A stretch of DNA of 61,452 bases from a phage: the sequence record PQ826432.1; one strand, 5' to 3'. Each line of letters opens with the position of its first letter. The stretch's first letter is position 1. Position numbers and translations under genes: made by a program. The notes beneath the pieces are model-generated. The model searched no databases, had not been told where the DNA came from, and saw only the letters and a list, made by a program, of their open reading frames with translations. Shown piece by piece: positions 1 through 25,400 of the stretch.

Positions 1-77
1 CCACTTCATACGGTTGAATATACGCACGGCTATCCCGAAGATGGAAATCCCCTACCCCGTAATTCATTACCCCGTTC
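1..77. repeat. 77-nt terminal overlap, identical to 61376..61452 (circular-permutation or assembly junction)
   Basis: exact identity of window start and end read directly. Confidence 0.9.
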
Positions 78-301
78 ATTGTTGGACCAACTGTACCTGT
101 GTTAATCAGGTTCTCTACCCAACGTTTAGTTGTCGCATCATAATCGCTAACGGGGTCCCCAGCTAAGGGTGTAGACCCAATTGGTCGAACGTTTAACCAC
201 GCAGCAGCACGGTCCGCAAGATCAGATAAGTTATTACTTTTATCCATCTTTTCGGATTTAAGCTTTGTAATGTCCTGAGGGATATTAGTATGAGTAGTCA
301 T
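1..301 (-). CDS. tail fibre protein, N-terminal segment; continues in-frame into 60024..61452 across the junction
   Basis: ATG at 299..301 with GAGGT 6 nt upstream, directly after stop of 312..578; no stop in frame down to codon 65..67, which equals the track start of ORF 60024..61442. Confidence 0.5.
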   Translation of the reverse strand, partial: MTTHTNIPQDITKLKSEKMDKSNNLSDLADRAAAWLNVRPIGSTPLAGDPVSDYDATTKRWVENLINTGTVGPTMNGVMNYGVGDFHLRDSRAYIQPYEV

Positions 302-311
302 TGCTTACCTC

Positions 312-578
312 TTATGCCCATTTACGTACACAAGGATTCTTAATAATAAATTGTTCAAGATCTGACAAGTCCACATTGTCCCCTATTATTCTTATGTTTA
401 TATAATAACCCTCTTTACCAATGACAACTGGAGTCTTACTTTTCGGGTCATCTACTATGAGGACAAAACCAATTTCATCTACAAACACTTTACCGTAGTT
501 TGTCTTAAGCCACTCACTATTAATGACAACATCCCGATAATGTTTTTCGTCTTTAAATTGTAAATTAATATCTTTCAT
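312..578 (-). CDS. hypothetical protein (88 aa)
   Basis: ORF track; ATG with GGGAG upstream; stop overlaps SD of next gene. Confidence 0.5.
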   Translation of the reverse strand: MKDINLQFKDEKHYRDVVINSEWLKTNYGKVFVDEIGFVLIVDDPKSKTPVVIGKEGYYINIRIIGDNVDLSDLEQFIIKNPCVRKWA

Positions 579-2684
579 TTAAACTTTCTCCCTCATCTGA
601 CCATCTGTTAATACCCGATTCCATACTCTAAGGTTTCGTATGTGTCCATATAATTTACTTGAATCGGAATGTCTTCCACCTATTTCTACTAGCGAGTCCG
701 AGTCCGTTCCTTTCCATGTAAAACCGTGTGAGGTCCCCCCCTTATTCCCATTAACAAATGAGGTGACATCTCCATTACCACTAAAAATAAAACCAAATAC
801 ATGTGAAGAAAATTGTTTTTCAAATGAATAACCCCTGGACAATATAGATGATCCATCCTCATTTACCACATACACATAAGGTGTAACGGAGGTTCTGTCA
901 AATTCCGCAACAAATGCTTTTCCTCTTACGTAGTATTGGTTATTATCCATTATCATTGGGTATGTATTATCTAATTGAAAGCTATCCCAGTTAACGCTCA
1001 CTTCAGCAAGGAATGAAATATTTGTCCCTGAGAAATTATTTCTTGCAGGTATAGTAACATAATCCACAGCCCTTGTTGCAGGAGTGCTTCCCGTAATAAT
1101 GAAGGAGGATGCACAAAAACCCTTTTCAAATTGCGGAGTACAAAATGATATTGTATCCCCAACTTGCAAGTTATCCCCGTTAGAGCCGCGAGCATAGTTA
1201 ATACTCCCAATCATGGCACCTGCAATATCAGAAAATTTACATGTTATTTCAACTTTCAGCCATCCATTATCTTCTTTGATGATTCTGTGTGTTACAGTTC
1301 CTCTAGCTTCTAGTGTATATGTCACCTCCCCTGTGTCGCATGACACTATAGATCTTGCAACAAGAATAAGGGCATTATCTTCCCCTAACGCATAGAATTG
1401 AGGAATTATGGAAATATTAGTTGCTTTCACTCTAATAGATAAGGTTGCGTATTCGTTCTGTTCACAATATATGTTGTTATTGTATTCGCAATAAAATAGT
1501 GATGGTGTATCACCTTGACCGTTTTCATTTGCGGTTGCGGTAGTATATGTAAATCCATATTTATCAACGCCGTAGGTAACGTCGCTACGATACTTATCAC
1601 TATTCAATGAAGATGGGTCATTGCTGTAAGTTATGTGGTTTGTCCTCTGCCCTTCAATTAAGAGTCCTTGCTTTTCAAATCTAGGTTCATCTATACCGGC
1701 AATACAAAACTCACCGTGCTTATTTATGTATGTTGCATTTGATGCACGCGAGAAGCTAACAACCTTATCAGAAGGCATTGTAATAACATCTTCACCAACT
1801 GTTATTTTCTTATAGCCTGGCGAGTAACCTGCAAGCATATCAAGCGAGTCATTAAATGGGATCCACACGTCAGGGAAAGGTTGAAGATCCGGAGCCCTGT
1901 TAGCTGCAACTTCCGCACGGTCTGCTTCTGCCTTTGCACGATCCGCGTCGTTTTTAGCTGCGGTTGCGCTTGTACCTGCGTTGCTTGCTTGTTTTCCAGC
2001 TTCGGTGGCGCTATTGCTTGCTTGTGTAGCAGACGCGGCAGCGGCGTCTTTTAGCGCGGTAGTTTCCGTTACTGCACTGTCCTTAATACCCTGTGTGTCT
2101 GCTTTTAACTGCTCAACGTCAGATTTTAGACCTTGAATTGTGGTCACAGCTTGTGATGCAGTATTAGCGGAACCAGCAGCGCCAGCCTGTGCTTGTTTAG
2201 CAGCGTCTTCGCTAGCTTTAGCATCATTTTTATAGACAAGTGCATCCGAAGCAGATTGAGCAGCCGAAGCCTTACTATTGCGAGCGTCCGTAGCATCTGC
2301 GTTTGCCGCCGCAGCAGAGCGACCAGCTTGCAAAGCATATTCTTCAGAGTTAGCTACAAGTTGTTGGACTTGTTTAATAACGTCCGGAGTTAATTCTTCT
2401 GGTGCCCAGTTAATTAAATAACCGTTCAGCGAACCTTCAGGGCTGTCGGAATAAATGACGATCTCACCAGCTTTATAAGGCTCAAGACCCTGCGGCCCAA
2501 TGATTACTTTGTAATGCCCCGCTTGTACAGTTACATTATAAGCACCTTCTCCATCTGTACGAAATACAGCCTCGCTACCATTAAGAACGGTAATTGTGTT
2601 CCCTTTTGCTAAAAGAGCAACGGTAGCGTTAACAATCGGTTTATTTAAACCATCTGTCAAAATACCATATAAACGAGTTGCCAT
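579..2684 (-). CDS. tail fibre protein (Ala-rich coiled-coil shaft, beta-rich C-terminal domain)
   Basis: ORF track 579..2714; start moved to ATG at 2684 (AGAGG SD; track start is TTG); composition typical of phage fibres. Confidence 0.65.
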   Translation of the reverse strand: MATRLYGILTDGLNKPIVNATVALLAKGNTITVLNGSEAVFRTDGEGAYNVTVQAGHYKVIIGPQGLEPYKAGEIVIYSDSPEGSLNGYLINWAPEELTPDVIKQVQQLVANSEEYALQAGRSAAAANADATDARNSKASAAQSASDALVYKNDAKASEDAAKQAQAGAAGSANTASQAVTTIQGLKSDVEQLKADTQGIKDSAVTETTALKDAAAASATQASNSATEAGKQASNAGTSATAAKNDADRAKAEADRAEVAANRAPDLQPFPDVWIPFNDSLDMLAGYSPGYKKITVGEDVITMPSDKVVSFSRASNATYINKHGEFCIAGIDEPRFEKQGLLIEGQRTNHITYSNDPSSLNSDKYRSDVTYGVDKYGFTYTTATANENGQGDTPSLFYCEYNNNIYCEQNEYATLSIRVKATNISIIPQFYALGEDNALILVARSIVSCDTGEVTYTLEARGTVTHRIIKEDNGWLKVEITCKFSDIAGAMIGSINYARGSNGDNLQVGDTISFCTPQFEKGFCASSFIITGSTPATRAVDYVTIPARNNFSGTNISFLAEVSVNWDSFQLDNTYPMIMDNNQYYVRGKAFVAEFDRTSVTPYVYVVNEDGSSILSRGYSFEKQFSSHVFGFIFSGNGDVTSFVNGNKGGTSHGFTWKGTDSDSLVEIGGRHSDSSKLYGHIRNLRVWNRVLTDGQMREKV

Positions 2685-2808
2685 TTTTACCTCTTGTTTC
2701 GCAGAGTTGATCAATTAATGGATGCACTATGGCATACAAATATGGTAAATTAAATTAGAATATAAAACAATATTGTCTATCATCTTTAACCACATTGTTG
2801 GAGTAATT

Positions 2809-3774
2809 ATGCCAGAGGGTATTTATATAAACTACAATGACGGCAGGCCTGCAATGCAGATAACAGCAGGATTACGCGCCCCGTCTTTTTGCGCCAACTT
2901 CAATCAACGCTGTCAATCCGATAAAACTCTAACCATCAATACACCTTTAACGCCGGGATCGCAGCTTATCGTTGTTATGACTAACCCCGTTGAAGTATTA
3001 GAAGTATTTGATCAGACGCTAGTTATCCCTGATCCAATGTATGTAACGTCTGTAACTCGAAACGGTGACGGTGGGGTGACGTTGCGAGGCGCGGATGGAC
3101 TTGGCGCTTATAGTGGATTGCCGCAATGGGCAGGGGTAATTATGGAAGTGTTACCTGTAGGAACGCGAAACGAGGGTCTATTTGTAGCTAACTCCACGGA
3201 CTTCACAGCAATATCCAACGCAGCCTTTCTCATGACTTGTCAGTATTCCCAGTACGTATGGGTTAACGGCAGTATGCCATTACCTGTCGGTGGTGTTCCG
3301 TTTGCTCGCTGGAACGACCCTAACGTATCAGTAGGTTTTGATGGTTCGAATATTATCGTTCGCAACGCAGCATATGGTGGAATTGATGACGTATCAGCTT
3401 CTGTTGGGATGGAATTAGTAATATTTAATAACACTCCCCCACAGCCTGGTGATGGTATTACCATGACGAACAGCGCGGGGCAGGTTACGTTCTCCACGGT
3501 TAAGAAGCCTTTTGTATTCAACGGAACAGTAGATCTTAGCGCGGGCTGGCAAAATATTGGTAACAGCTTAATACAACTTGCATACACAGGCACGCTTATT
3601 GAGAACAACGGGGGTTATAATCACATTCGCATGAACGGGATTCGTATGGCGGATAATGTGGTAGGTGCTGCAAGAAACCGCGTGGTAGGCAACTACTCGC
3701 GACAACAATTCCAAATGCCCGGTCGTAACGTGGTAATCTCAACACCGCTCATAGCTATACCAAATATGTATTAA
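2809..3774 (+). CDS. hypothetical protein, opposite-strand gene inside the tail module
   Basis: ORF track 2773..3774; ATG at 2809 with GGAG SD; own terminator downstream. Confidence 0.5.
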   Translation: MPEGIYINYNDGRPAMQITAGLRAPSFCANFNQRCQSDKTLTINTPLTPGSQLIVVMTNPVEVLEVFDQTLVIPDPMYVTSVTRNGDGGVTLRGADGLGAYSGLPQWAGVIMEVLPVGTRNEGLFVANSTDFTAISNAAFLMTCQYSQYVWVNGSMPLPVGGVPFARWNDPNVSVGFDGSNIIVRNAAYGGIDDVSASVGMELVIFNNTPPQPGDGITMTNSAGQVTFSTVKKPFVFNGTVDLSAGWQNIGNSLIQLAYTGTLIENNGGYNHIRMNGIRMADNVVGAARNRVVGNYSRQQFQMPGRNVVISTPLIAIPNMY

Positions 3775-3775
3775 T

Positions 3776-3797
3776 AAACGGGGCATGCGCCCCGTTT
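3776..3797. terminator. bidirectional stem-loop between convergent genes
   Basis: 9-bp stem AAACGGGGC/GCCCCGTTT, 4-nt loop, A/T-rich flanks on both strands. Confidence 0.6.
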
Positions 3798-3806
3798 ATT
3801 ATTTAA

Positions 3807-6458
3807 TCACCAGCGTCCTACTATGACAACCCCCCCACCGGATAACGGAACGCGAATACCATTACTATCAATTGTAATACCTCCATTTCCGTTGAAACCA
3901 AATTGACCAGCGTTAGCAATGACCGTCCCTCTGACGGTAACGTTATTAAATACGCAATAACCGTCTTTTGTAATTGCCCAACCTTGATCGTTACCATTCC
4001 AGTTATTGGACTGAATAACATTACCAATCTTGGCGTTGGTGATTGAGCCATTCTCAATAAAGGCTTCTTGTAAGAAACTTTGACCGTTTTTAATAGCAAA
4101 AGCAAGCTGTGCTGCTCCCGCTACAGGATTATAAATAGCGAAGTTGTCCGCACTCACCATGAAGTAAGACTGGAATTGACCTCCGCTACCTTCTATACCT
4201 AACTGCATACCGGCGACATATTTATTACCGTTACTATCAATCTGAACTTTTTGTCCCCATTGGGCAGAGAGTTTACCATTAAGATCTGCTAATGCTTGGG
4301 ATTGTTGTTGAACTGTGACTACAACATCCCCGACACTTGTCTGAACAGAATCTATCTTGGAAGCTTGACCTTCTACCACTTTGGATAATTCTGTTACACC
4401 GTCATCAACCTTTTGCACAGTCTCCATGAGGTTTTTGAAAGTCTCAGTTTCTTGAAACTCTTTATCCATGATTTCTATAATCTGTGCGGTTTCTGCCCAT
4501 ACACGAGCTTCAACTTCCACAAACTCGGACGAGCCAAAGGCGTTGATAGTTCTTATATACCAGTAATAAGTGTGGTCATTGAGTAAGTTATTTTTCTGCC
4601 ATATAGTTCCCATACCTTCACGGGTAGCATCACGCTCAACAACATCTGTATTAGCAGATGCCAGTTTTGTTTCACCAGACGTCCAGAAATCAAATTGCGT
4701 GCTAACACTAGTCAGCTCTGCAATCTTTGGTATAAGAGTTAAAGAAAAATAACCGTTCTGTATCTCGACAGATGAAGGCGGCGGTGGAGCTTGAATATTA
4801 AACTCCAGATAAGCTTCCGGTGATATTGCACCGCTGTGAGATACAGCTTGAACGTGCGCAGTATACGCCCCACGAAGCAGCCCAGTAACACGAACGCTTT
4901 GGCCAGGGACTTGTGCGGTCCAAATAGTAACGCCTCCCTGTCGCACAGCTACGCGGTTATATGCGACTTGCCCCATGTTTGTCCAGGATAATACCCCCTG
5001 TACCACATCACTGATTTGCAATATCTGGTATTGAAGATTTTGAGGTTGAGCAACACCACCACTTGGCAAGTCTACAAGATCCGGTCTGTCCATAGGTTTA
5101 CCAATTGCATCGTCCCACATTTCCAGGAAATCTTGACGTAATGTAAGGTTAACACCACCTTTAGGGTTAAAAGACCATTTGGTAACGCGCATTTCAACAT
5201 TCTTCATGCCAATCTGCGTGATGGTAACTTTTACATACATTCCTGGACGGAACTTATAACCCTTCATGTTACAAGGGATTTCAATTGTACGTCCAACACG
5301 TTTACGACGTAGAATAATATTAGACAAACGTTGTGCCTGATATTCACTAGTTACAAAACGAAAATCCATGTCCTGAGTTATTTCCCCGCCATCCTTTTCC
5401 ACCCATTCCTTAACCACAACTGGAGGGAAGTCTGCTTCAACGTAGTTCTGCTTCGGATCAATAAATGTCCCTGTGATGGTGTTTGTGCGCTCCTTATAAG
5501 AAGTCTCTGGAACAATCTTAATATCCCCAGCAATACAACTTTCGTCCAGCGTCATTGTTGCTGGACCGTAATATGCGCCAACCAGAAGACCGTGTTTACC
5601 CGCCACATACGTTAGCTCGCCGCCACAAGCTTGCAACATAGCATCCAGAATTTTGGAGGGGGCTTCATCTACTTCAAATTCACCGTTAATTTTATAACGG
5701 CGCTCTGTAGAACCATCAGCGTTATTGACGTATTCATCACAGATGTTAGCAGCTTCTTTGAACTGGTCCCAGTTAATATCTTCATCTTTTCGCTTTAAAT
5801 ACGTGCGGAAGTAATCAAGTATTACTAAAGCTGCATTATCGCTAAATATGGTATAGCCAGAACGAGGATCATATACACGGCGTCCTCTTTTAAGAAGCTT
5901 AATGTTTGGCAAACCAGAAGGGAATTTTTCTGCATTAAATTTAAAGCTAATGCGAAGCCATGCAATCCCTTTCCCAATCATATCCTCTTTCCAGGAAGGG
6001 CAATTGCTTAACATGAATGGATCTACAGTCTGACGGTCGTTATGAAATTCCCAAGTAACATACTGTTCGAAAGTCTGTACAAGATCATCCCCAAGCCAAA
6101 TATCACCAATCCCCTCCAATGGATGTGAAGCTACAACAAGCGCCATATGCAGGAGTTCGTCTTCGTCTTGATCACCAGGCTGCTCCTCGGCAAACGTCAT
6201 AACACCGGAAGCAACCGTTGTCCCGTATACTACTGTTCGGGACGCTGCGGCTGCTCGTAAAACCTGCTTACGCTCTTGTTGGCCTTTATAAGCATTAAAG
6301 TTCATATTAGGTGTCTTAGTTAAAAGAGCACCTGCCGCAGTTGCAGCCATACCAATAGCCAAAGCTACGCCCGTAGCAATCCACCCCGCCGCAGCGGCAG
6401 CGGAAGCACCTAAAGCTATTGCTGCTCCAATTATTGCTGGTGGCATTAGACCCTCCAA
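3807..6458 (-). CDS. tail tip / host specificity protein, lambda J-like
   Basis: 883 aa; segments YYWYIRTINAFGSSEFVEVEA and FNIQAPPPPSSVEIQNGYF recall lambda gpJ by memory; position after minor tail genes; true start uncertain. Confidence 0.75.
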   Translation of the reverse strand: MEGLMPPAIIGAAIALGASAAAAAGWIATGVALAIGMAATAAGALLTKTPNMNFNAYKGQQERKQVLRAAAASRTVVYGTTVASGVMTFAEEQPGDQDEDELLHMALVVASHPLEGIGDIWLGDDLVQTFEQYVTWEFHNDRQTVDPFMLSNCPSWKEDMIGKGIAWLRISFKFNAEKFPSGLPNIKLLKRGRRVYDPRSGYTIFSDNAALVILDYFRTYLKRKDEDINWDQFKEAANICDEYVNNADGSTERRYKINGEFEVDEAPSKILDAMLQACGGELTYVAGKHGLLVGAYYGPATMTLDESCIAGDIKIVPETSYKERTNTITGTFIDPKQNYVEADFPPVVVKEWVEKDGGEITQDMDFRFVTSEYQAQRLSNIILRRKRVGRTIEIPCNMKGYKFRPGMYVKVTITQIGMKNVEMRVTKWSFNPKGGVNLTLRQDFLEMWDDAIGKPMDRPDLVDLPSGGVAQPQNLQYQILQISDVVQGVLSWTNMGQVAYNRVAVRQGGVTIWTAQVPGQSVRVTGLLRGAYTAHVQAVSHSGAISPEAYLEFNIQAPPPPSSVEIQNGYFSLTLIPKIAELTSVSTQFDFWTSGETKLASANTDVVERDATREGMGTIWQKNNLLNDHTYYWYIRTINAFGSSEFVEVEARVWAETAQIIEIMDKEFQETETFKNLMETVQKVDDGVTELSKVVEGQASKIDSVQTSVGDVVVTVQQQSQALADLNGKLSAQWGQKVQIDSNGNKYVAGMQLGIEGSGGQFQSYFMVSADNFAIYNPVAGAAQLAFAIKNGQSFLQEAFIENGSITNAKIGNVIQSNNWNGNDQGWAITKDGYCVFNNVTVRGTVIANAGQFGFNGNGGITIDSNGIRVPLSGGGVVIVGRW

Positions 6459-19503: not shown

Positions 19504-21063
19504 TTAAATACCGATAGTTTTACCAACACCTGTATAAACAGCTTGATCCAGAACCATATAACGTACTTCATCGCCCATATGGTCTTCACATTCCGTATCA
19601 ACGTCGTCCTGATCTACTTCATCGCGCGGAAGACTTGGAACCAGTTCAAAGAAATAATTGCAGTTATCGAAAACATACATTGCTGGATTTTCACGTGGTC
19701 CCGGCAAAGGTTTACCGTTTGCATCTTCCCGCAATGCAGCTTTAAGAAACTCACGCATTTTCTGCCATCCACGTTTACGTGACCCAGCAGATTTATCACT
19801 TCTCTTCCAATGGATACCGTTATACAGCTTGCCGTTAAGACGGATTTTCTTCGCCATTGTTGCGGCGGTAGAGTTATTGTTCTCCAGATCCCAAATAGAG
19901 TTATCCGCAGGTCCAGGAACTACACGGTCGTGTATACCCCAGGCCAATTCCCGCTCCAGTATACCGCTTGCAATCTCTGAGTCCAGCAAATGTAGGCCTT
20001 CGTTTGTTTTACCGTTAGTGCCGTACCATTCGTTAATACGGAACAAGTCACCGCGAACAGTAGAGAAGGTAGTACCATCTTCACGTACAACATCCGAACC
20101 GTCACTAATAGCCCACCAGCCAACGGAGAATGGTTTTGAAGAACCCCAGTCGAAAGAACGTGTGATCTTCCAGCTTGATGGGATTGGGAATGGGCGTATT
20201 TTATGAACAGTGCTACGCCACAGATCATCGAACATACCGCCGGAGGTGATATCCCAGCTACCGCCTAACCATGCGGCGCGTTTATTGGGGTCTGTGATAG
20301 ACATAAGTTCTGCAATATATTTCGGGCTCAGGTTTTTGTTCTCGCGGTAAGATCCGAAGATATGACATTGCGTCGTAACCACATCTTCCTCTTTCTGCGT
20401 CCGCGGGTTAAACACTCGCGTAGTTTTCCTGAGTATCTTACCCATCGGTGCGGCGTCAATGAAGCGTTTCTTAACCCAGTTATGCCCAGCACCAAACGGG
20501 TTACTAGTGGCAAACACTTCCAGAGGAATGTCTGGTAAATATGTGACAGTACCGTCCGGATTGATAATTGGATTATCTTCGGGCAGGAATGATGAACGGT
20601 TACAGGACATCATTGCTTCAAACAAACGCCCGTCCGGATACTTTGTTAATTCGTTCCATCCGATAAACGGGTATTCGTGACCATGATAAGACCAATAATC
20701 CTTTTCTTTGCAAGCAACACGGAACAGCAATTCTTCCCCAGTGGGCCAAACCCATTTATAATCAGACTTCGAGCTAAGGAATTTAGCACCATCTTTAAAT
20801 TCAGGGAACCAACGCTGTGATTTGGTTACAAGGTCATCAAGGTTTTTATATTCACGGTCGAATATAATACCTTTCCAGAATTTACCGTACCCTACGCCAA
20901 CATTTTTACGGAAACGCATAAGCTGGCAGTCTGTTTTTCCAGGACCGCGAGTTCCGTGGTATAAGATGATATCAGCAGGGCAGGATAGAGCGAGTGTCTG
21001 TGAACCTGGATGTGGTTTCCAGACTACTCGCGGCATGTTATCAGGTTGTTGGTTTAGCTCCAT
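19504..21063 (-). CDS. terminase large subunit
   Basis: 519 aa; Walker A-like GTRGPGKT near N-terminus. Confidence 0.8.
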   Translation of the reverse strand: MELNQQPDNMPRVVWKPHPGSQTLALSCPADIILYHGTRGPGKTDCQLMRFRKNVGVGYGKFWKGIIFDREYKNLDDLVTKSQRWFPEFKDGAKFLSSKSDYKWVWPTGEELLFRVACKEKDYWSYHGHEYPFIGWNELTKYPDGRLFEAMMSCNRSSFLPEDNPIINPDGTVTYLPDIPLEVFATSNPFGAGHNWVKKRFIDAAPMGKILRKTTRVFNPRTQKEEDVVTTQCHIFGSYRENKNLSPKYIAELMSITDPNKRAAWLGGSWDITSGGMFDDLWRSTVHKIRPFPIPSSWKITRSFDWGSSKPFSVGWWAISDGSDVVREDGTTFSTVRGDLFRINEWYGTNGKTNEGLHLLDSEIASGILERELAWGIHDRVVPGPADNSIWDLENNNSTAATMAKKIRLNGKLYNGIHWKRSDKSAGSRKRGWQKMREFLKAALREDANGKPLPGPRENPAMYVFDNCNYFFELVPSLPRDEVDQDDVDTECEDHMGDEVRYMVLDQAVYTGVGKTIGI

Positions 21064-21598
21064 CTTCAGTCTCTTTAACTAGTCGTTGTTGAGACTCGGA
21101 TGCAGTTTTTTCCCATTCGTCAATATTTGCTACAGCAGGGACTATCATTACGCCGCCTCTGTTAGTAACATCAATTTTAGCCTTCTTGGGCGCATCCAAA
21201 TCATAAATTTGTGCAAGCTTGCCCAATGCAGCCACTCTAGCAGCTTGAGAAGATCCCGGTCCTGTATAATGAGCTTCACGTTTTAATGCTTCAATGATAT
21301 GCTGACGCTCTAGGTCTGCTTCAATGTTAGCTTGCTCAGAAGTACGTTGAACACGGGATCTTTCAATCTCCTTGAGCTTCCATCGAACATAACAGTCCGT
21401 GGCAAAGCGTTGGCCAAGCTCCTGTGCAAACATAGCATTGAACCCGCATCTCATGCAAGCGTTAGTCCAATTGTAGTCGAACATATACTCAGCAACAACT
21501 TTGTCACGTATTGCCATCTCGTCAGCGGACAAGCTATTTGCATACTGGATATAATTCGTCCAGTCACGATCATATTGCTCTTGACTTGCCCCGTTCAT
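21041..21598 (-). CDS. terminase small subunit (by position)
   Basis: 185 aa immediately upstream of and overlapping terL. Confidence 0.45.
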   Translation of the reverse strand: MNGASQEQYDRDWTNYIQYANSLSADEMAIRDKVVAEYMFDYNWTNACMRCGFNAMFAQELGQRFATDCYVRWKLKEIERSRVQRTSEQANIEADLERQHIIEALKREAHYTGPGSSQAARVAALGKLAQIYDLDAPKKAKIDVTNRGGVMIVPAVANIDEWEKTASESQQRLVKETEDGAKPTT

Positions 21599-21618: not shown

Positions 21619-21924
21619 CTATTTAGGCTGAATATAATTGCTTGATCCTACAAAATCAAGCGAAACATTTTCAGCTTCATAGCGTATGATTTCCTTAACC
21701 CTTAGCTTACATTCAGTCAGAGCAGTTTCTGTATCCTGTAAACGTCGGATAATATCTCTTGTGTAAACCAAAGGAATTTTCTCAACTTCCCGACATTCTA
21801 CCAACAGATGAGCTGGAAGTTTTATCTTCACTATCTGTGGAGCTGGGGGAGGTTGAGTCTGCGTCGAGCAACCTGCGCAAATCATCAGGAATACGCTCGT
21901 TAAGATAAGCTTTGACGTCAGCAT
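21619..21924 (-). CDS. o-spanin (Rz1-like lipoprotein), overlapping i-spanin
   Basis: internal ATG; hydrophobic signal ending in Cys (LMICAGC), Pro-rich segment; out of frame with i-spanin 3' end. Confidence 0.45.
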   Translation of the reverse strand: MLTSKLILTSVFLMICAGCSTQTQPPPAPQIVKIKLPAHLLVECREVEKIPLVYTRDIIRRLQDTETALTECKLRVKEIIRYEAENVSLDFVGSSNYIQPK

Positions 21925-22258
21925 TGCTTTTCTCCAGTGTCCGCAACTTGTCCTGAAGCAACTTGTGGTTATGTTGTTCATCTTGAATTGCAGAAGTTAG
22001 TTTCTTGAAAGAGTCCGTGTCCTTCTCCCTTTGTGCAGCAAGAAATACAACAGCCTCGCCCAGCTTTGCATTGTCTTTCTCCACAACGGTTAAACGTTCT
22101 TCAGCCAAACTTAAATTTGATTTGTTAAGCTCGTTCTGTGACCACAGGTGGGCAGCCACCCCGCATAAAAACACCACCGCGCCAATCATCAGGTACTCGA
22201 TAAATAGACGCGGTTTAGCTTTTATAAAACTGAAGAAGTTATTTAGAATCATTTTCAT
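21782..22258 (-). CDS. i-spanin (Rz-like)
   Basis: N-terminal TM helix then coiled coil; follows holin. Confidence 0.55.
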   Translation of the reverse strand: MKMILNNFFSFIKAKPRLFIEYLMIGAVVFLCGVAAHLWSQNELNKSNLSLAEERLTVVEKDNAKLGEAVVFLAAQREKDTDSFKKLTSAIQDEQHNHKLLQDKLRTLEKSNADVKAYLNERIPDDLRRLLDADSTSPSSTDSEDKTSSSSVGRMSGS

Positions 22259-22583
22259 GTTTGCAGTCCTCTGAGTCGAGTTTGATCCCTGTCCGCAATG
22301 CTAGAAGCGACTTTAGAGCTTTTAGCGTAGCACGTGAACCCGCCCAAGCGAATAGGCCAGCAAGGCCAAAAGCGAACCAAAGGCTGATATTAAACTCCCT
22401 GTAGATCGCGTACATTATAACGCCAAAGAACGCGGCGGATAAACCTTCAAGACATGCAATGCTTATCCGTACCTTCTTACCAGCGTCAATTGTACGCATG
22501 ACGTAACCGAGAGCTCCCCCAATGAGGGAAATCAGAGCAAACCCCGCTAGAACTGCCCAATGTTCGTTCGATGAGTTGAACAT
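22239..22583 (-). CDS. holin
   Basis: ORF track 22239..22616; start moved to ATG 22583 with GGAGGG SD; about three hydrophobic helices. Confidence 0.55.
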   Translation of the reverse strand: MFNSSNEHWAVLAGFALISLIGGALGYVMRTIDAGKKVRISIACLEGLSAAFFGVIMYAIYREFNISLWFAFGLAGLFAWAGSRATLKALKSLLALRTGIKLDSEDCKHENDSK

Positions 22584-22600
22584 GTTCCCTCCAATAAAAA

Positions 22601-22614
22601 GGGGCTGACGCCCC
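22601..22614 (-). terminator. short hairpin plus U-run between endolysin and holin (possible attenuator)
   Basis: minus strand GGGGC-GTCA-GCCCC followed by TTTTT, then holin SD. Confidence 0.3.
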
Positions 22615-22619
22615 ATCAG

Positions 22620-23057
22620 TTAAATTACCATTGCAATAGCGCGGTCGATCACGTCATCAGTATAAGGCATCATGCCATTTTCATGACGAATGATTGCTTT
22701 CACCAAACCTGACATTATTGTCTTGTCGAAGACATTAATTGGATCGTTAGGTTGAACACCAATTGCTTTGGCAACAGAACGAATATACGCTTCCGTATCG
22801 TTTTCATTAGGTGGAGCCCAGCGAGCGATAATTTCACGTACAGTGTCGATGTTTTTCTTACCCACATTGGGCAAGCCTTCACGTTTGGTGTAGTTTGTCA
22901 GGATTTTCGCTAGTGCACGAATGCCGTAAATCGGTTGCGTGAATTGAGCAAAAGATTTATCGGTCCGCTTATCAGCAGGAACTAAGCCCTGCCAATTGTC
23001 ACCCCAGCGAATATTACCTGGATTGTTATTACGAATACCACGAGGTTGAAGCGCCAT
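22620..23057 (-). CDS. putative endolysin
   Basis: ORF track 22620..23327; start moved to ATG 23057 with GGAGGA SD; position next to holin/spanins; catalytic class not determined. Confidence 0.45.
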   Translation of the reverse strand: MALQPRGIRNNNPGNIRWGDNWQGLVPADKRTDKSFAQFTQPIYGIRALAKILTNYTKREGLPNVGKKNIDTVREIIARWAPPNENDTEAYIRSVAKAIGVQPNDPINVFDKTIMSGLVKAIIRHENGMMPYTDDVIDRAIAMVI

Positions 23058-23139: not shown

Positions 23140-23400
23140 TTACCCGTCAAACCACTCGCTAATGTACCAGCTAACAAGACCTTTTCCACCTTCATCAACC
23201 CCGTAGCTGGAGTAAAAAGTGAAGTTATCGGGTTCGTGTTGCAGGATAACCATAAAGTCATGCTGAGTGCTGTCAATAATTGCAATGGCGATTTCCTCGT
23301 TATCCGTGATAAAGATTTCGCCACCAATTACAACATGCGTCCCGTGGTCAACTACCTTGCTGTGATAAGCAGGTGGGATCAGGTAACTGAATGTAGTCAT
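23140..23400 (-). CDS. hypothetical protein (86 aa)
   Basis: ORF track. Confidence 0.4.
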   Translation of the reverse strand: MTTFSYLIPPAYHSKVVDHGTHVVIGGEIFITDNEEIAIAIIDSTQHDFMVILQHEPDNFTFYSSYGVDEGGKGLVSWYISEWFDG

Positions 23401-23865
23401 TTAAAAACCCTCAAACGATATTGTATCAACGCCAAGAAATGCACATGTGGTATGCTTGATTGCTAGCTCGATAGCTTCGCGTGCGCTTGCACCAGCAGCT
23501 AGAGCACCCGCAGCAAACACGCAGCCACTGCCATCCGACCCCCATCCATCTAGCATGGGTTCGCTCAAAGTACCATCATTATAAATAAAATGGCAAGTAC
23601 CTTCCGGAGTAACAGCAAGACCGCAAGTTTGCCCATAATCGTCATCTTTGCTGTAAACTTTAATATCTGGGAACTTAACAGGCTCAGGACTATTAAAATA
23701 ACGCAGCACTTGGTCAGTGAATGCAGTCAAACCGCACAAGCCCAGCAAGAAGCGTCCACGATGTCCATTTACGCTGTGAACTTTCTTATAAGCAGTCACA
23801 GCTTCCCCGCGCATAACTCCACGGTCCGCAGCTAATACTTTTCCATCGTAAGCAATGGTTGTCAT
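23401..23865 (-). CDS. HslV-like Ntn-hydrolase peptidase (proteasome beta-type)
   Basis: N-terminus MTTIAYDG with Thr2; GLCGLTAF and GSDGSGCVFAAGALAAG align by eye to HslV GFAGGTADAF and GSGGPYAQAAARAL. Confidence 0.55.
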   Translation of the reverse strand: MTTIAYDGKVLAADRGVMRGEAVTAYKKVHSVNGHRGRFLLGLCGLTAFTDQVLRYFNSPEPVKFPDIKVYSKDDDYGQTCGLAVTPEGTCHFIYNDGTLSEPMLDGWGSDGSGCVFAAGALAAGASAREAIELAIKHTTCAFLGVDTISFEGF

Positions 23866-24047
23866 TTAATTTTCCTTTGGTCTTGAATAATAACAATACA
23901 TAAGACAAATAGAATAAGACAGATGCACAGCCCTGTACTGGCAAAGATTCGAATAACCGTGGAAGGTTGTTCGACTACTGTATAGGTATAAAGCCCAGCG
24001 AACATTAACGTCGCAAATAAAAACAATCCGGCGTATAGTTTGGTCAT
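23862..24047 (-). CDS. small membrane protein (61 aa)
   Basis: ORF track; two hydrophobic segments. Confidence 0.4.
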   Translation of the reverse strand: MTKLYAGLFLFATLMFAGLYTYTVVEQPSTVIRIFASTGLCICLILFVLCIVIIQDQRKIK

Positions 24048-24109
24048 TGTGTACCCCTCTTATTCGATGGGTACACAATACAATGAAGGGTTATCTGATA
24101 GCAAGGTTT

Positions 24110-24532
24110 TTAATTAAGCACAATCTCAACGTCTTTAACCCAAGTATGAATGATAAATGCTCCTGGCTGTTCAGGATCTTGATCCGGGCCAACGTAGAAC
24201 TTTTTACCTTCCCAACCTTTAATCGGGTCATGTACAATAAACTTGTGATTAGTTGTATCGATCACAACCTGATGCAGTGCTCCAGGAACATTGAGACTTG
24301 GGACAGTGCACAAAAACAAACCACCCATGCATATAGTTTCACGCCCACCGCCTACAGAACAGATGTGGTCAACATTATTTTGTACTAGATATTCGGAAAT
24401 TGTTATTTCCCAGTTGTTATAATAACGACTATGAAATTCCGCAATTACTTCTTCTACAGGTCTATTAAGGATCATTGCCAAACACGCAGAAACGCATGTA
24501 TTTAAAGTTGGCTGTTTGACATGTTTAATCAT
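24110..24532 (-). CDS. putative papain-like cysteine peptidase (C39-like)
   Basis: QPTLNTCVSACLAMIL resembles the C39 Cys motif; downstream His (HQVVID). Confidence 0.4.
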   Translation of the reverse strand: MIKHVKQPTLNTCVSACLAMILNRPVEEVIAEFHSRYYNNWEITISEYLVQNNVDHICSVGGGRETICMGGLFLCTVPSLNVPGALHQVVIDTTNHKFIVHDPIKGWEGKKFYVGPDQDPEQPGAFIIHTWVKDVEIVLN

Positions 24533-24533
24533 C

Positions 24534-25004
24534 TTATGCCTCGTATATGACTTCCGGCTCGTTATTATAAGGACGCAGCAGCAAACGCGCTACCATCGCC
24601 GTACGCCCGCTTAACCCTTGTAGATGCACAAACCCAACAAACTGGTAGTGACAACCGCGCAGGTGATGCAAGCTCTTAGCGCAATGGCACGCTTCTAAAC
24701 GAAGTGTCTCGCCCGTCTGCCATTTAACCACAATGGTAGAGCTCGCGGTCATGTTAATTTCTACATCACCGATTTCAACCTGAAGACGCAGAACATCTTC
24801 TACAACATTACGGACATAGACAAGGATCTGTGATGTGGGCATAACAATGAGCCCATTCCAGTCCTTCCCGCGACCCAATCCGCAATAACGCGCAAAGTTG
24901 GCTATCAACTGCGTTTCTGTAACCTGTTTTACTTCAAACGACTTCTTCAGTTGGCAGTCTTTGGATTCGTCCATTGCATCAACAATAGTTTTAACGTCAG
25001 CCAT
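24534..25004 (-). CDS. hypothetical protein (156 aa)
   Basis: ORF track. Confidence 0.45.
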   Translation of the reverse strand: MADVKTIVDAMDESKDCQLKKSFEVKQVTETQLIANFARYCGLGRGKDWNGLIVMPTSQILVYVRNVVEDVLRLQVEIGDVEINMTASSTIVVKWQTGETLRLEACHCAKSLHHLRGCHYQFVGFVHLQGLSGRTAMVARLLLRPYNNEPEVIYEA

Positions 25005-25007
25005 TAT

Positions 25008-25400
25008 TTACTCCGCTAATGTGTAAGAAATACCGGATGCTTTAATCCGTCTGTACATATCCATAGTACCAGCTCCGCCCGGAAACACAATAGCGTGATC
25101 TGGTTTAGGATCAGTATCCAGCATTAATTGATTACGGTAAGCGCCCGCTTGGGCATTATAAGCACCTCTGGCGTTATACCGTATCTTAGTATTTGGAAGC
25201 GAAAGATTGTCCCACGGTGCAGGAAACGCCTCCGTCTTAATACCGTTCCGCTCCGCCCAATGTGCGCAAATGCGGTCAACACCGTCAGCGTCACCGTGGC
25301 GAAGTGTGGTTATCCTTCTTTGCATATGCAGCTTATCCAACTGAGCGTAAATATACTCCACATGCTTAAAATCTCGACCTCCGGTGACGACTAATAGCAT
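25008..25400 (-). CDS. SLOG-family protein (DUF2493 / YspA-like)
   Basis: motifs VVTGGRDF, HGDADGVD, FPGGAGT typical of the family. Confidence 0.55.
   Translation of the reverse strand: MLLVVTGGRDFKHVEYIYAQLDKLHMQRRITTLRHGDADGVDRICAHWAERNGIKTEAFPAPWDNLSLPNTKIRYNARGAYNAQAGAYRNQLMLDTDPKPDHAIVFPGGAGTMDMYRRIKASGISYTLAE

What the first reader, a model, noticed from the sequence alone, without database searches (positions are those of the whole stretch)
23140..25400. Accessory cluster: HslV-like peptidase, C39-like cysteine peptidase and SLOG (DUF2493) protein
Seen: 23401..23865 starts MTTIAYDG (Thr2) and has GLCGLTAF and GSDGSGCVFAAGALAAG, which align by eye to E. coli HslV; 24110..24532 has a C39-like Cys motif (NTCVSACLAMIL); 25008..25400 has SLOG/DUF2493 motifs. 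Inference: no HslU-like ATPase is present, so a phage HslV-like subunit would have to act alone or borrow a host unfoldase. Two peptidases next to a nucleotide-binding-type SLOG domain, upstream of the lysis genes, looks like a host-takeover or counter-defence module. I do not recall an assigned function for a phage HslV homologue.
Basis: partly seen in the sequence, partly recalled or inferred. Interest (0 to 1): 0.7.

Follow-up and report, generated by a model that had tools for sequence, protein, structure and literature searches.

The report
Phage two-peptidase plus SLOG gene module
A Seuratvirus-type E. coli phage carries, just upstream of its lysis genes, a small proteasome-like threonine peptidase, a C39-like cysteine peptidase and a SLOG nucleotide-binding protein that stay together in related phage genera; the protein families are known, but what the trio does is not.

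Summary

- **HslV-like protein:** it has a proteasome-beta/HslV fold, an invariant Thr2 and a conserved Asp/Lys/Gly/G-S-G set. It is not HslV proper. [quoted passage not shown]
- **SLOG protein:** it is a clear YAcAr/DUF2493 member.

New here: the trio is contiguous, with overlapping genes and shuffled order, in Pantoea phage Vid5 and Providencia phage PSTCR4. The trio proteins are 27-40% identical between genera, against 67-74% for TerL. Outside this clade the three families occur separately.

The gene between the SLOG and C39-like genes is a catalytically dead fragment of the terminase ATPase domain.

A host-directed or counter-defence role is plausible but untested. Borrowing host HslU looks unlikely. 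Interest is moderate.

The parts
25008..25400 (-). YAcAr-family SLOG (DUF2493) protein, 130 aa. It carries the VVTGGRD and FPGGxGT motifs and a 15-aa insertion absent from the Vid5 and PSTCR4 orthologues.
   Evidence: Pfam PF10686 at E 4.9e-18, 65.2 bits against a cut-off of 28.2. phrog_289 at E 6.8e-23. Alignment with the Vid5 and PSTCR4 orthologues, both confirmed as YAcAr by Pfam.
24534..25004 (-). p156: a 156-aa degenerate homologue of the terminase large subunit ATPase segment that lies between Walker A and Walker B. Both catalytic motifs are missing. It has a conserved Cys/His cluster (C106-H-C108, H113-H114, C118-H119) and is restricted to Seuratvirus and STP-SP5-like phages.
   Evidence: BLASTP against the phage's own TerL: 28% identity over 100 aa, E 2e-5. 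BLASTP against another TerL: E 4e-7. hhalign of A5 against the TerL N-terminal alignment A6: probability 95.8%, E 7.5e-9, 101 columns. Family alignment. Distribution. The start codon lies 3 nt after the SLOG stop and has a GGAG ribosome-binding site.
24110..24532 (-). Stand-alone C39-like (papain-fold) cysteine peptidase, 140 aa, with invariant Gln7, Cys13, His87 and Asp102.
23862..24047 (-). 61-aa protein with two hydrophobic segments (read from the sequence). Its stop codon overlaps the PPH start (ATGA). Found only in Seuratvirus-type loci among those examined.
   Evidence: ORF and translation. phrog_22841. Overlap shown. No homologue in the other loci examined.
23401..23865 (-). PPH-type minimal proteasome-beta/HslV homologue, 154 aa. 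Thr2 would become the N-terminal nucleophile after Met removal. Asp14, Lys28, Gly45 and Gly112-Ser-Gly114 are conserved. Helix H2 is absent.
   Evidence: Alignment A1. Profile against PDB: HslV E 1.9e-7, BPH E 5.5e-7. AlphaFold model pLDDT 93.8. Foldseek: HslV, beta5 and BPH at probability 1.00. phrog_1040 at E 9e-33. 8105 relatives (50%-identity clusters) at E<=1e-10; the 150 best listed are mostly about 140-165 aa. PPH description in PMC8665760.
23140..23400 (-). 86-aa protein of unknown function. Its start abuts the PPH stop. Found only in Seuratvirus-type loci among those examined.
   Evidence: ORF. phrog_23528. No homologue in the other loci examined.
21619..23057 (-). Downstream lysis cassette (endolysin 22620-23057, holin 22239-22616, spanins 21782-22258 and 21619-21981). 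It marks the conserved position of the module. TerS (21041-21598) and TerL (19504-21063) follow.
   Evidence: phrog_873 endolysin. Pfam Phage_holin_3_3. CAjan annotation. The same arrangement is seen in Vid5 and PSTCR4.

Best explanation
This is a clade-specific accessory module of a Seuratvirus-type siphophage, built around three proteins.

**What is shown**
1. One protein is a PPH-type minimal proteasome-beta homologue. Its Thr2 would be exposed by removal of the initiator Met, and the rest of the catalytic set is intact.
2. One is a stand-alone C39-like cysteine peptidase with a Gln/Cys/His/Asp set.
3. One is a YAcAr SLOG protein, a family predicted to bind or process nucleotide- or NAD-derived ligands.
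4. The three genes have tight or overlapping junctions and lie directly upstream of the lysis and terminase genes.
5. The three genes are kept together in at least three genera, even though gene order and the surrounding genes change.
6. The three proteins diverge much faster than the structural core.

**What is inferred**
- The three products act together in the infected cell's cytoplasm on host targets. The two peptidases would cut specific host proteins, or proteins of a host defence system. The SLOG protein would bind or destroy a nucleotide-type signal.
- PPH works without a dedicated unfoldase.
- In Seuratvirus the module has also picked up a dead terminase-ATPase fragment, which may act as a terminase mimic.

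The protein identities and the conserved linkage are secure (about 0.9). The host-directed or counter-defence role is a best guess.
For: **Identities**
- PPH: and PMC8665760.
- C39-like.
- SLOG.

**Tight gene junctions**
- ATGA overlap at the PPH start and 1-3 nt gaps elsewhere, each with a ribosome-binding site.

**Conserved linkage with reshuffling**
- Seuratvirus: SLOG-p156-C39-TM61-PPH-p86.
- Vid5: C39-SLOG-PPH with 4-nt overlaps.
- PSTCR4: SLOG-C39-PPH with overlaps.
- Nonagvirus JenP1: C39, two other genes, then PPH.

**Fast divergence**
- Trio proteins are 27-40% identical between genera; TerL is 67% (PSTCR4) to 74% (Vid5) identical.

**Context elsewhere fits a host-interaction or nucleic-acid conflict theme**
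- C39-like homologues sit among DNA methylases, Mom, PAPS reductase, helicases and topoisomerase genes.
- YAcAr neighbours include SF2 helicases, sigma-70-like factors, NADAR and Gad1.
- YAcAr is predicted to use NAD+ or ADP-ribose derivatives (PMC7824862).

**Not a virion component**
- None of the trio is among the 11 Vid5 virion proteins named in the main text of the Vid5 paper (PMC6266253).
Against: - No experiment or published function exists for any of the three families.
- There is no PADLOC match.
- The linkage is confined to one clade whose TerL proteins are 67-82% identical. Inherited gene order cannot be fully excluded as the reason the genes stay together.
- Nonagvirus has no SLOG next to its C39 and PPH genes. 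Vibrio phage pVco-14, also in Queuovirinae, has C39 alone.
- None of 64 other viral PPH clusters, 40 bacterial PPH loci or 76 other SLOG loci shows the partner genes.
- PPH elsewhere is embedded in packaging and head modules. That could point to a late, assembly-related role instead.
- Expression timing is unknown. Promoter and terminator scans were at chance level.
Confidence: 0.4

Rival explanations
1. The peptidases serve the phage's own late programme. PPH, perhaps with the C39-like enzyme, would process or clear phage proteins such as scaffold, capsid, packaging or lysis components. On this view the module sits next to the lysis and terminase genes because it is a late, assembly- or lysis-linked function.
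For: - In diverse phages the genes flanking PPH are dominated by TerL, TerS, major capsid, portal, head-morphogenesis and Ad1-adaptor genes.
- In locus L018 the order is portal-PPH-MuF-like-scaffold-capsid, the slot where a prohead protease usually sits.
- CAjan has no annotated prohead protease between portal, scaffold and capsid.
- The module always lies directly upstream of the lysis and terminase genes in this clade.
- p156 is derived from the terminase.
Against: - PPH occupies many different slots: before TerS, after TerL, between portal and MuF, and between adaptor and neck genes. That looks like a mobile insert, not a fixed assembly gene.
- Phages with a scaffold but no protease are common (general knowledge).
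- The trio diverges far faster than the structural genes.
- C39-like and SLOG homologues elsewhere sit among early DNA-metabolism genes.
- The trio is absent from the virion proteins named in the Vid5 paper. Maturation proteases often leave the capsid, so this point is weak.
Confidence: 0.25
2. There is no joint function. The three genes are unrelated accessory genes that happen to be neighbours because this clade inherited a common gene order. Each acts alone or is dispensable.
For: - Outside the clade each family occurs without the others, in 64 PPH clusters, 40 bacterial PPH loci, about 10 distant C39-like loci and 76 SLOG loci.
- Nonagvirus lacks the SLOG gene there. pVco-14 has only the C39-like gene.
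- The genera that carry the trio have TerL proteins 67-74% identical, so they are fairly close relatives.
Against: - The order of the three genes differs between genera, yet they remain contiguous with overlapping start and stop codons. Meanwhile the flanking and intervening accessory genes (p156, TM61, p86) come and go.
- Passive synteny predicts a conserved order. It does not predict reshuffled genes that stay adjacent.
Confidence: 0.25
3. The HslV-like protein assembles into an HslV-type double ring and recruits the host HslU ATPase, forming a hybrid ATP-dependent protease that redirects host proteolysis.
For: - The N-terminus (MTTI) matches E. coli HslV as remembered, and the catalytic residues are conserved.
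- HslV is the best sequence and fold match among solved structures.
- E. coli hosts encode HslU (general knowledge).
Against: - The protein is 154 aa and lacks helix H2, as described for PPH. From general knowledge, the H1/H2 face is the one that meets the ATPase or alpha ring.
- The Pfam Proteasome match is below the curated cut-off (16.7 against 22.4 bits).
- Identity to HslV structures is only about 18-21%.
- BPH, one of the closest relatives among solved structures, has no known ATPase partner (general knowledge).
- PPH also occurs in phages of hosts across Proteobacteria and in other contexts.
Confidence: 0.08

Closest known systems
[quoted passage not shown]
   Same: - Compact single-domain proteasome-beta homologue of about 140-155 aa.
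- Starts Met-Thr, with the Thr1/Asp17/Lys33/Gly47 equivalents conserved.
- Helix H2 is missing.
- Encoded by tailed phages and prophages.
- Nearest to HslV and BPH.

   Different: - Nothing separates it from the family as described.
- The conserved linkage to a C39-like peptidase and a SLOG protein in one clade did not turn up in that paper.
- The paper's reference sequence could not be compared directly.
HslV (ClpQ), the peptidase subunit of the HslUV ATP-dependent protease
   Same: - N-terminal Thr nucleophile exposed by Met removal.
- The same fold.
- G-S-G and Asp/Lys motifs.
- HslV is the best match among solved structures.

   Different: - About 20 residues shorter, with no H2 helix.
- Below the Pfam threshold.
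- No hslU partner gene in the CAjan annotation of this genome type.
- Only about 18-21% identity to solved HslV and beta-subunit structures.
BPH (beta-proteobacterial proteasome homologue, PDB 5ovs/5ovu)
   Same: - A group I proteasome homologue with no adjacent ATPase gene.
- Profile E 5.5e-7 and Foldseek probability 1.00.
- This makes it a precedent for an ATPase-independent ring peptidase.
   Different: - BPH is about 190-200 aa and keeps both helix pairs.
- It is bacterial, not phage-borne.
Peptidase C39 domains of bacteriocin and peptide exporters (PCAT1, ComA, LahT)
   Same: - Gln six residues before the Cys, and Asp fifteen residues after the His. This matches the C39 arrangement as remembered.
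   Different: - Stand-alone 140-aa protein, not fused to an ABC transporter.
- No obvious double-glycine leader substrate is conserved nearby.
- The Pfam match is below threshold and covers only the Cys helix.
YAcAr (PF10686/DUF2493) SLOG family
   Same: - Clear Pfam member.
- Phage-borne members are known and are predicted to use NAD+ or ADP-ribose derivatives (PMC7824862).
- The domain is also found fused to an SF1B helicase in ICP1 HelB.
   Different: - Among the YAcAr loci sampled here, only this clade places it next to peptidases. Elsewhere its neighbours are helicases, sigma-like factors, NADAR or ParB-like genes.
- The last position of the LOG-type PGGxGTxxE motif (as remembered) is Met, not Glu, in all three orthologues.
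Terminase large subunit ATPase domain (for p156)
   Same: Profile-profile homology over 101 columns with TerL residues 42-142.
   Different: - Only a 156-aa fragment.
- The Walker A motif (GTRGPGKT) and the Walker B motif (GWNE) have no counterpart.
- There is no nuclease domain.
- A new Cys/His cluster is present.

Membership tests
HslV (peptidase T1B) | N-terminal Thr nucleophile directly after the initiator Met | tested here: met
   The ORF begins MTT, and no upstream start is possible in that ORF. Thr2 is invariant in 16 relatives.
HslV (peptidase T1B) | Asp17, Lys33, Gly45-47 and Gly-Ser-Gly (Ser124) equivalents | tested here: met
   D14, G45, G112 and G114 are invariant, and K28 is at least 90% conserved. 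The profile aligns these regions to HslV.
HslV (peptidase T1B) | Proteasome-beta (Ntn hydrolase) fold | tested here: met
   Model pLDDT 93.8. Foldseek gives HslV 1m4y at E 2.6e-6 and probability 1.00.
HslV (peptidase T1B) | Reaches the curated family threshold (Pfam PF00227) | tested here: not met
   16.7 bits against a cut-off of 22.4, E 0.006, residues 7-58 only. No NCBIfam HslV match.
HslV (peptidase T1B) | Full-length architecture of about 175 aa with both helix pairs (H1-H4) | tested here: not met
   The protein is 154 aa. The model has one long helix (47-58) before the central strands, and only a 3-residue turn where H2 would be.
HslV (peptidase T1B) | Partner HslU AAA+ ATPase encoded alongside | tested here: not met
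   No such gene is found near the cluster or anywhere in the CAjan annotation. The window was not scanned exhaustively for AAA+ domains.
HslV (peptidase T1B) | Dodecameric double ring activated by HslU C-termini | not testable with these tools
The tool as used here returned single-chain models only.
[quoted passage not shown] | Compact subunit of about 140 aa with no insertions or C-terminal extension | tested here: met
   The protein is 154 aa. Of 8105 related clusters at E<=1e-10, the 150 best listed are mostly about 140-165 aa and aligned from residue 1.
[quoted passage not shown] | Lacks helix H2 | tested here: met
   Secondary structure of the model, against the family description.
[quoted passage not shown] | Encoded by tailed phages and prophage regions, mainly of Proteobacteria | tested here: met
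   59 phage records, 171 viral contigs and 40 proteobacterial genome loci.
[quoted passage not shown] | Clusters with the published PPH reference (WP_042125023.1) | not tested
Peptidase C39 | Papain-like fold closest to C39 domains | tested here: met
   [not shown]
Peptidase C39 | Catalytic Cys-His-Asp with an oxyanion-hole Gln upstream of the Cys | tested here: met
   Q7, C13, H87 and D102 are invariant in 13 relatives down to 32% identity. Superposition of these side chains on a C39 active site was not checked.
Peptidase C39 | Reaches the curated family threshold (Pfam PF03412) | tested here: not met
   13.5 bits against a cut-off of 22, residues 3-23 only. The profile against PDB sequences found no peptidase.
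Peptidase C39 | Fused to, or partnered with, an ABC exporter and a double-glycine leader peptide substrate | tested here: not met
   Stand-alone 140-aa ORF. No transporter is present in the phage.
Peptidase C39 | Cleaves after Gly-Gly | not testable with these tools
   Requires biochemistry.
YAcAr SLOG (PF10686 / DUF2493) | Reaches the curated family threshold | tested here: met
   65.2 bits against a cut-off of 28.2. The orthologues in Vid5 (79.4 bits) and PSTCR4 (52.1 bits) also pass.
YAcAr SLOG (PF10686 / DUF2493) | Glycine-rich SLOG motifs (GGR near the N-terminus, PGGxGT near the C-terminus) | tested here: met
   G7-G8-R9 and P107-G-G-x-G-T112 are invariant across three genera.
YAcAr SLOG (PF10686 / DUF2493) | Binds or processes a nucleotide or ADP-ribose-type ligand | not testable with these tools
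   This is a prediction from the literature only.
Terminase large subunit ATPase (for p156) | Homology to the ATPase core | tested here: met
   hhalign probability 95.8%, E 7.5e-9. BLASTP E 2e-5 and 4e-7.
Terminase large subunit ATPase (for p156) | Walker A and Walker B catalytic motifs | tested here: not met
   The alignment starts just after TerL K43-T44. The Walker B position reads FVGFVH instead of IGWNEL.

The most novel reading that the evidence does not exclude
The Seuratvirus cassette (SLOG, terminase-ATPase fragment p156, C39-like peptidase, PPH) is a multi-pronged anti-defence unit aimed at host sensors that fire on late phage proteins or on nucleotide signals.

- p156 would act as a catalytically dead terminase decoy for terminase-sensing immune proteins of the Avs type.
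- The two peptidases would cleave or degrade the activated immune proteins or their conjugates.
- The SLOG protein would soak up or destroy a nucleotide or ADP-ribose second messenger.
- PPH would then be the first viral proteasome-like enzyme with an assigned role.
Probability: 0.12. Interest if true: 0.8.

Novelty: new variant of a known kind. Interest (0 to 1): 0.45.

Why it matters
Phage-encoded proteasome homologues were catalogued in 2021 as the first truly viral members of the proteasome family. No function, partner or substrate has turned up for them in the literature searched here.

This window shows one such gene held together with a C39-like cysteine peptidase and a SLOG protein across several phage genera. 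That gives three concrete handles in easily grown E. coli phages (CAjan, Seurat, the BASEL Seuratvirus isolates):
- two active-site mutants to make;
- a candidate ligand-binding protein to test;
- a set of natural variants that have or lack individual parts (Vid5, PSTCR4, Nonagvirus).

If the module turns out to be host-directed, it would add proteolysis by a self-contained threonine peptidase to the known ways phages handle host proteins. If it is assembly-linked, it would be a new kind of phage maturation enzyme. If neither holds, it is a well-documented set of accessory genes.

The dead terminase-ATPase fragment is a separate small curiosity. It may be worth testing against terminase-sensing defence systems.

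Tried and rejected
- **Single-sequence searches of the PDB** with the HslV-like and C39-like proteins gave only noise. Profiles were needed.
- **The C39-like profile against PDB sequences** found no peptidase. Only fold comparison resolved it.
- **PADLOC and NCBIfam** gave nothing meaningful for any of the six proteins.
- **The sigma-70 promoter and terminator scan** of 20.5-31.5 kb returned counts equal to shuffled controls. No transcription units could be drawn.
- **A universal PPH-C39 or PPH-SLOG linkage** was tested from all three sides and rejected.
  - PPH loci.
  - C39-like loci.
  - SLOG loci.
  - The association exists only in the Queuovirinae-like clade.
- **A divergent SLOG in Nonagvirus JenP1 next to C39 and PPH** was looked for and not found.
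- **p156 as an unfoldase partner for PPH** was considered and rejected. It is a terminase-type fragment without Walker motifs, not an AAA+ protein.
It was repeated with a narrower alignment.
- **The p156 profile against the PDB** found nothing.
- **Literature searches** for any functional work on phage HslV/PPH, DUF2493 or these Seuratvirus genes found only the 2021 survey and passing mentions.


Full report
**What the window is.** The 2.26-kb interval is 90-97% identical at the nucleotide level to 34 sequenced phages. Nearly all are Escherichia phages of the genus Seuratvirus (CAjan, Seurat, slur01, several BASEL isolates) or close relatives such as phiG7 and CSP1. All genes of interest lie on the minus strand. 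They belong to a long co-directional block that runs from a set of small accessory genes through the lysis cassette into TerS, TerL and the structural genes.

**Checking the observation.** The three ORFs and every quoted motif are present at the stated coordinates. The interval holds six genes, listed here in transcription order:
- SLOG (25008-25400);
- a 156-aa gene, p156 (24534-25004);
- the C39-like gene (24110-24532);
- a 61-aa gene with two hydrophobic segments (23862-24047);
- the HslV-like gene (23401-23865);
- an 86-aa gene (23140-23400).

Endolysin, holin, spanins and TerS follow. The junctions are tight. SLOG to p156 is 3 nt, p156 to C39-like is 1 nt, and the 61-aa gene overlaps the HslV-like start as ATGA. 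Each start is preceded by a purine-rich ribosome-binding site. Every ORF matches a PHROG family at E 1e-23 or better, so none is a chance ORF.

**The HslV-like protein.**
- A single-sequence Pfam scan gives only a sub-threshold Proteasome match (16.7 bits against 22.4). A single-sequence PDB search gives nothing.
- An alignment of 16 relatives has invariant Met1-Thr2, Asp14, Gly45, Gly112 and Gly114, and a nearly invariant Lys28. These correspond to the Thr1, Asp17, Lys33, oxyanion Gly and Gly-Ser-Gly elements of HslV and proteasome beta subunits.
- That profile finds solved HslV (4hnz, E 1.9e-7), BPH (5ovu, E 5.5e-7) and beta5 subunits.
- The AlphaFold model is confident (pLDDT 93.8). It matches HslV, yeast beta5 and BPH at Foldseek probability 1.00.
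- An exhaustive profile search finds 11,457 related clusters, 8,105 of them at E<=1e-10. The 150 best listed are mostly about 140-165 aa and aligned from residue 1.

[quoted passage not shown] Fuchs, Alva and Lupas described it in 2021 as a roughly 140-residue group I homologue related to BPH and HslV. It lacks helix H2 and is found in tailed phages and prophages (PMC8665760). The model shows one long helix where H1 and H2 would lie, and no second one. The protein is therefore a proteasome-family Thr peptidase of the PPH type. It is not HslV proper. RefSeq already calls it "peptidase HslV family". No functional study was found.

**The C39-like protein.**
- The Pfam match to Peptidase_C39 is sub-threshold and covers only residues 3-23.
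- Thirteen relatives down to 32% identity keep Gln7, Cys13, His87 and Asp102 invariant. The Gln lies six residues before the Cys and the Asp fifteen after the His. From memory this matches the C39 arrangement.
- The model is confident (pLDDT 93.8).
- The protein is stand-alone, with no ABC transporter, so it is C39-like in fold and active site but not a classical bacteriocin-processing domain.
- The family (phrog_4049) is unannotated. tblastn finds it in 194 phage records, including Kuttervirus, Taipeivirus-sized Klebsiella phages, Vibrio podophages and Pseudomonas phages.

**The SLOG protein.** This is a clear YAcAr (PF10686, formerly DUF2493) member. It has invariant GGR and PGGxGT motifs. 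Published comparative work predicts that phage YAcAr domains use NAD+ or ADP-ribose derivatives (PMC7824862). The domain also occurs fused to an SF1B helicase in ICP1 HelB.

**Is it a module?** I tested this from all three sides.

*From PPH.* Eighty viral contigs carrying PPH (64 clusters at 80% identity) were fetched with 5-kb flanks. Apart from the Seuratvirus contig, none has a C39-like, SLOG, p156, 61-aa or 86-aa homologue nearby. Forty bacterial PPH loci also have none.

*From the C39-like protein.* Distant homologues sit among DNA methyltransferases, Mom, PAPS reductase and helicases. In Salmonella phage Marshall the homologue lies between the two topoisomerase II subunit genes. None of these loci has PPH or SLOG.

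*From SLOG.* Seventy-six of the 80 closest viral SLOG loci have neither peptidase. Their immediate neighbours are SF2 helicases, sigma-70-like factors, and single cases of NADAR, Gad1, DnaB and others.

Inside the clade of roughly 60-kb siphophages related to this one, the picture reverses:

| Phage | TerL identity to window | Arrangement |
|---|---|---|
| Pantoea phage Vid5 | 74% | C39-SLOG-PPH, 4-nt overlaps, then lysis genes |
| Providencia phage PSTCR4 | 67% | SLOG-C39-PPH, overlapping, then endolysin, holin, spanin, TerS, TerL |
| Nonagvirus JenP1 | about 70% | C39, two unrelated genes, PPH; no SLOG detected |
| Vibrio phage pVco-14 (Queuovirinae) | not measured | C39 only |

The trio proteins are only 27-40% identical between genera, while TerL is 67-74% identical. 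The Seuratvirus-specific genes (p156, the 61-aa and 86-aa genes) are absent from Vid5 and PSTCR4.

The three genes stay adjacent even though their order, sequences and neighbours change. That pattern is the main argument for a functional link. Its restriction to one clade is the main caveat.

**Where PPH sits in other phages.** Among 57 diverse loci, the two genes downstream of PPH are dominated by TerL, TerS, major capsid and head-morphogenesis genes. The two genes upstream include TerL, TerS, Ad1 adaptor, portal-type and capsid genes (representatives). In L018 the order is portal-PPH-MuF-like-scaffold-capsid. CAjan has no annotated prohead protease.

This raises a rival reading, that PPH has a late, assembly-linked role. 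Three points argue against it:
- PPH occupies many different slots, which looks like a mobile insert.
- The trio evolves fast.
- No trio member is among the virion proteins named in the main text of the Vid5 paper (PMC6266253).

I give this rival about 0.25.

**The gene in between.** p156 was an unexpected find.
- It aligns with residues 44-139 of the phage's own TerL (28% identity, E 2e-5) and with another TerL (E 4e-7).
- A profile-profile comparison with 14 TerL N-termini gives probability 95.8% and E 7.5e-9 over 101 columns.
- The match starts just after the TerL Walker A motif (GTRGPGKT) and ends at the Walker B strand, where p156 reads FVGFVH instead of IGWNEL.
- p156 is therefore a catalytically dead terminase-ATPase fragment with a new Cys/His cluster.
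- It is confined to Seuratvirus and STP-SP5-like phages.

It is not an unfoldase and does not rescue the idea of a phage-encoded ATPase partner. Whether it mimics terminase for a host sensor, or for TerS, is speculation.

**How it most likely works.**

*Shown:*
- There are two predicted active peptidases and one SLOG protein.
- Their genes have tight or overlapping junctions.
- They are conserved as a unit in several genera.
- They diverge quickly.

*Inferred:*
- They act together in the cytoplasm on host targets. PPH would work as an ATPase-independent ring peptidase in the manner proposed for BPH. The C39-like enzyme would act as a sequence-specific endopeptidase or deconjugase. The SLOG protein would handle a nucleotide-type ligand.
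- Borrowing host HslU seems unlikely. PPH lacks helix H2 and is far from HslV in sequence. By general knowledge, H2 lies on the face that contacts the ATPase.

I put 0.4 on the host-directed module, 0.25 on a late phage-directed role, 0.25 on no joint function and under 0.1 on an HslU hybrid.

**Novelty and score.** The three families are known, and two of them are already named in RefSeq records of these phages. Three things did not turn up in the searchable literature:
- the conserved, reshuffled three-gene linkage;
- the structural confirmation of the C39-like family;
- the terminase-derived p156.

This is a new variant built from known parts. It gives a practical route to the open question of what phage proteasome homologues do. 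Nothing here is mechanistically demonstrated, so the interest score is 0.45.

Noticed in passing
window 24534-25004 (-): The 156-aa gene between the SLOG and C39-like genes is a degenerate homologue of the phage's own TerL ATPase segment between Walker A and Walker B (hhalign probability 95.8%, E 7.5e-9). Both catalytic motifs are lost and a conserved Cys/His cluster is gained. It is restricted to Seuratvirus and STP-SP5-like phages.
   Followed up: yes
L002 (Escherichia phage CSP1C, PQ202980.1) 2221-4481: The product names in this GenBank record look shifted by one gene. 'ATP-dependent protease subunit HslV' sits on the 86-aa gene, 'cysteine protease' on the 61-aa membrane gene, 'T3SS chaperone' on the C39-like gene, and 'DNA processing protein DprA' on p156.
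   Followed up: partly
L018 3610-9080; L019 2183-4419; L004 4001-5981: In unrelated phages PPH is embedded in packaging and head modules. Examples are portal-PPH-MuF-like-scaffold-capsid (L018), Ad1 adaptor-PPH-neck and tail-completion genes (L019), and PPH directly before TerL (L004, and 21 of 83 loci).
   Followed up: yes
L088 (CAjan NC_028776.1) 1-6000: The head module is annotated TerS, TerL, portal, scaffold and major head protein, with no prohead protease. Whether the capsid protein is processed is not known from the sources read.
   Followed up: no
L179 (Salmonella phage Marshall) 4980-5429: A C39-like homologue (43% identity) lies between the large and medium subunit genes of topoisomerase II, overlapping the start of the medium-subunit gene by 4 nt. 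The same family occurs in many Kuttervirus genomes.
   Followed up: partly
window 23249-23276 (-): A promoter-like site (TTGACA, 16-nt spacer, TATGGT; 10 of 12 matches) lies inside the 86-aa gene, about 190 nt upstream of the endolysin start. The overall promoter count in the region equals the shuffled control, so it may mean nothing.
   Followed up: no
window 23140-23400 (-): The 86-aa protein contains VVIGG at residues 23-27 and DEGGKG near residue 70. The first resembles the end of a double-glycine leader only loosely. No homologue was found in Vid5 or PSTCR4, so it is not a conserved substrate candidate.
   Followed up: partly
window 25008-25400 (-); L169 4489-5004: The Seuratvirus SLOG protein has a 15-aa insertion (LSLPNTKIRYNARGA region) absent from Vid5 and PSTCR4. 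The PSTCR4 SLOG has an N-terminal extension of about 50-70 aa with several Cys residues. In all three, the last position of the LOG-type PGGxGTxxE motif (as remembered) is Met, not Glu.
   Followed up: no
L222-L301 (viral YAcAr SLOG loci): Outside this clade the genes directly flanking YAcAr SLOG are most often an SF2 helicase (8 of 82 neighbours) or a sigma-70-like factor (8). There are single cases of NADAR, Gad1 (Gabija anti-defence), DnaB, ThyX and PD-(D/E)XK nuclease. Klebsiella siphophages place it by a ParB-like gene and a YbiA/NADAR N-glycosidase.
   Followed up: partly
L182-L204 (Roseomonas and other Acetobacteraceae genomes): About two dozen Acetobacteraceae and Rhodospirillales genomes carry a PPH gene (43-48% identical to the alphaproteobacterial query). 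Few neighbouring genes are conserved across these loci and there is no obvious phage context in the flanks examined. The neighbours were not annotated.
   Followed up: no
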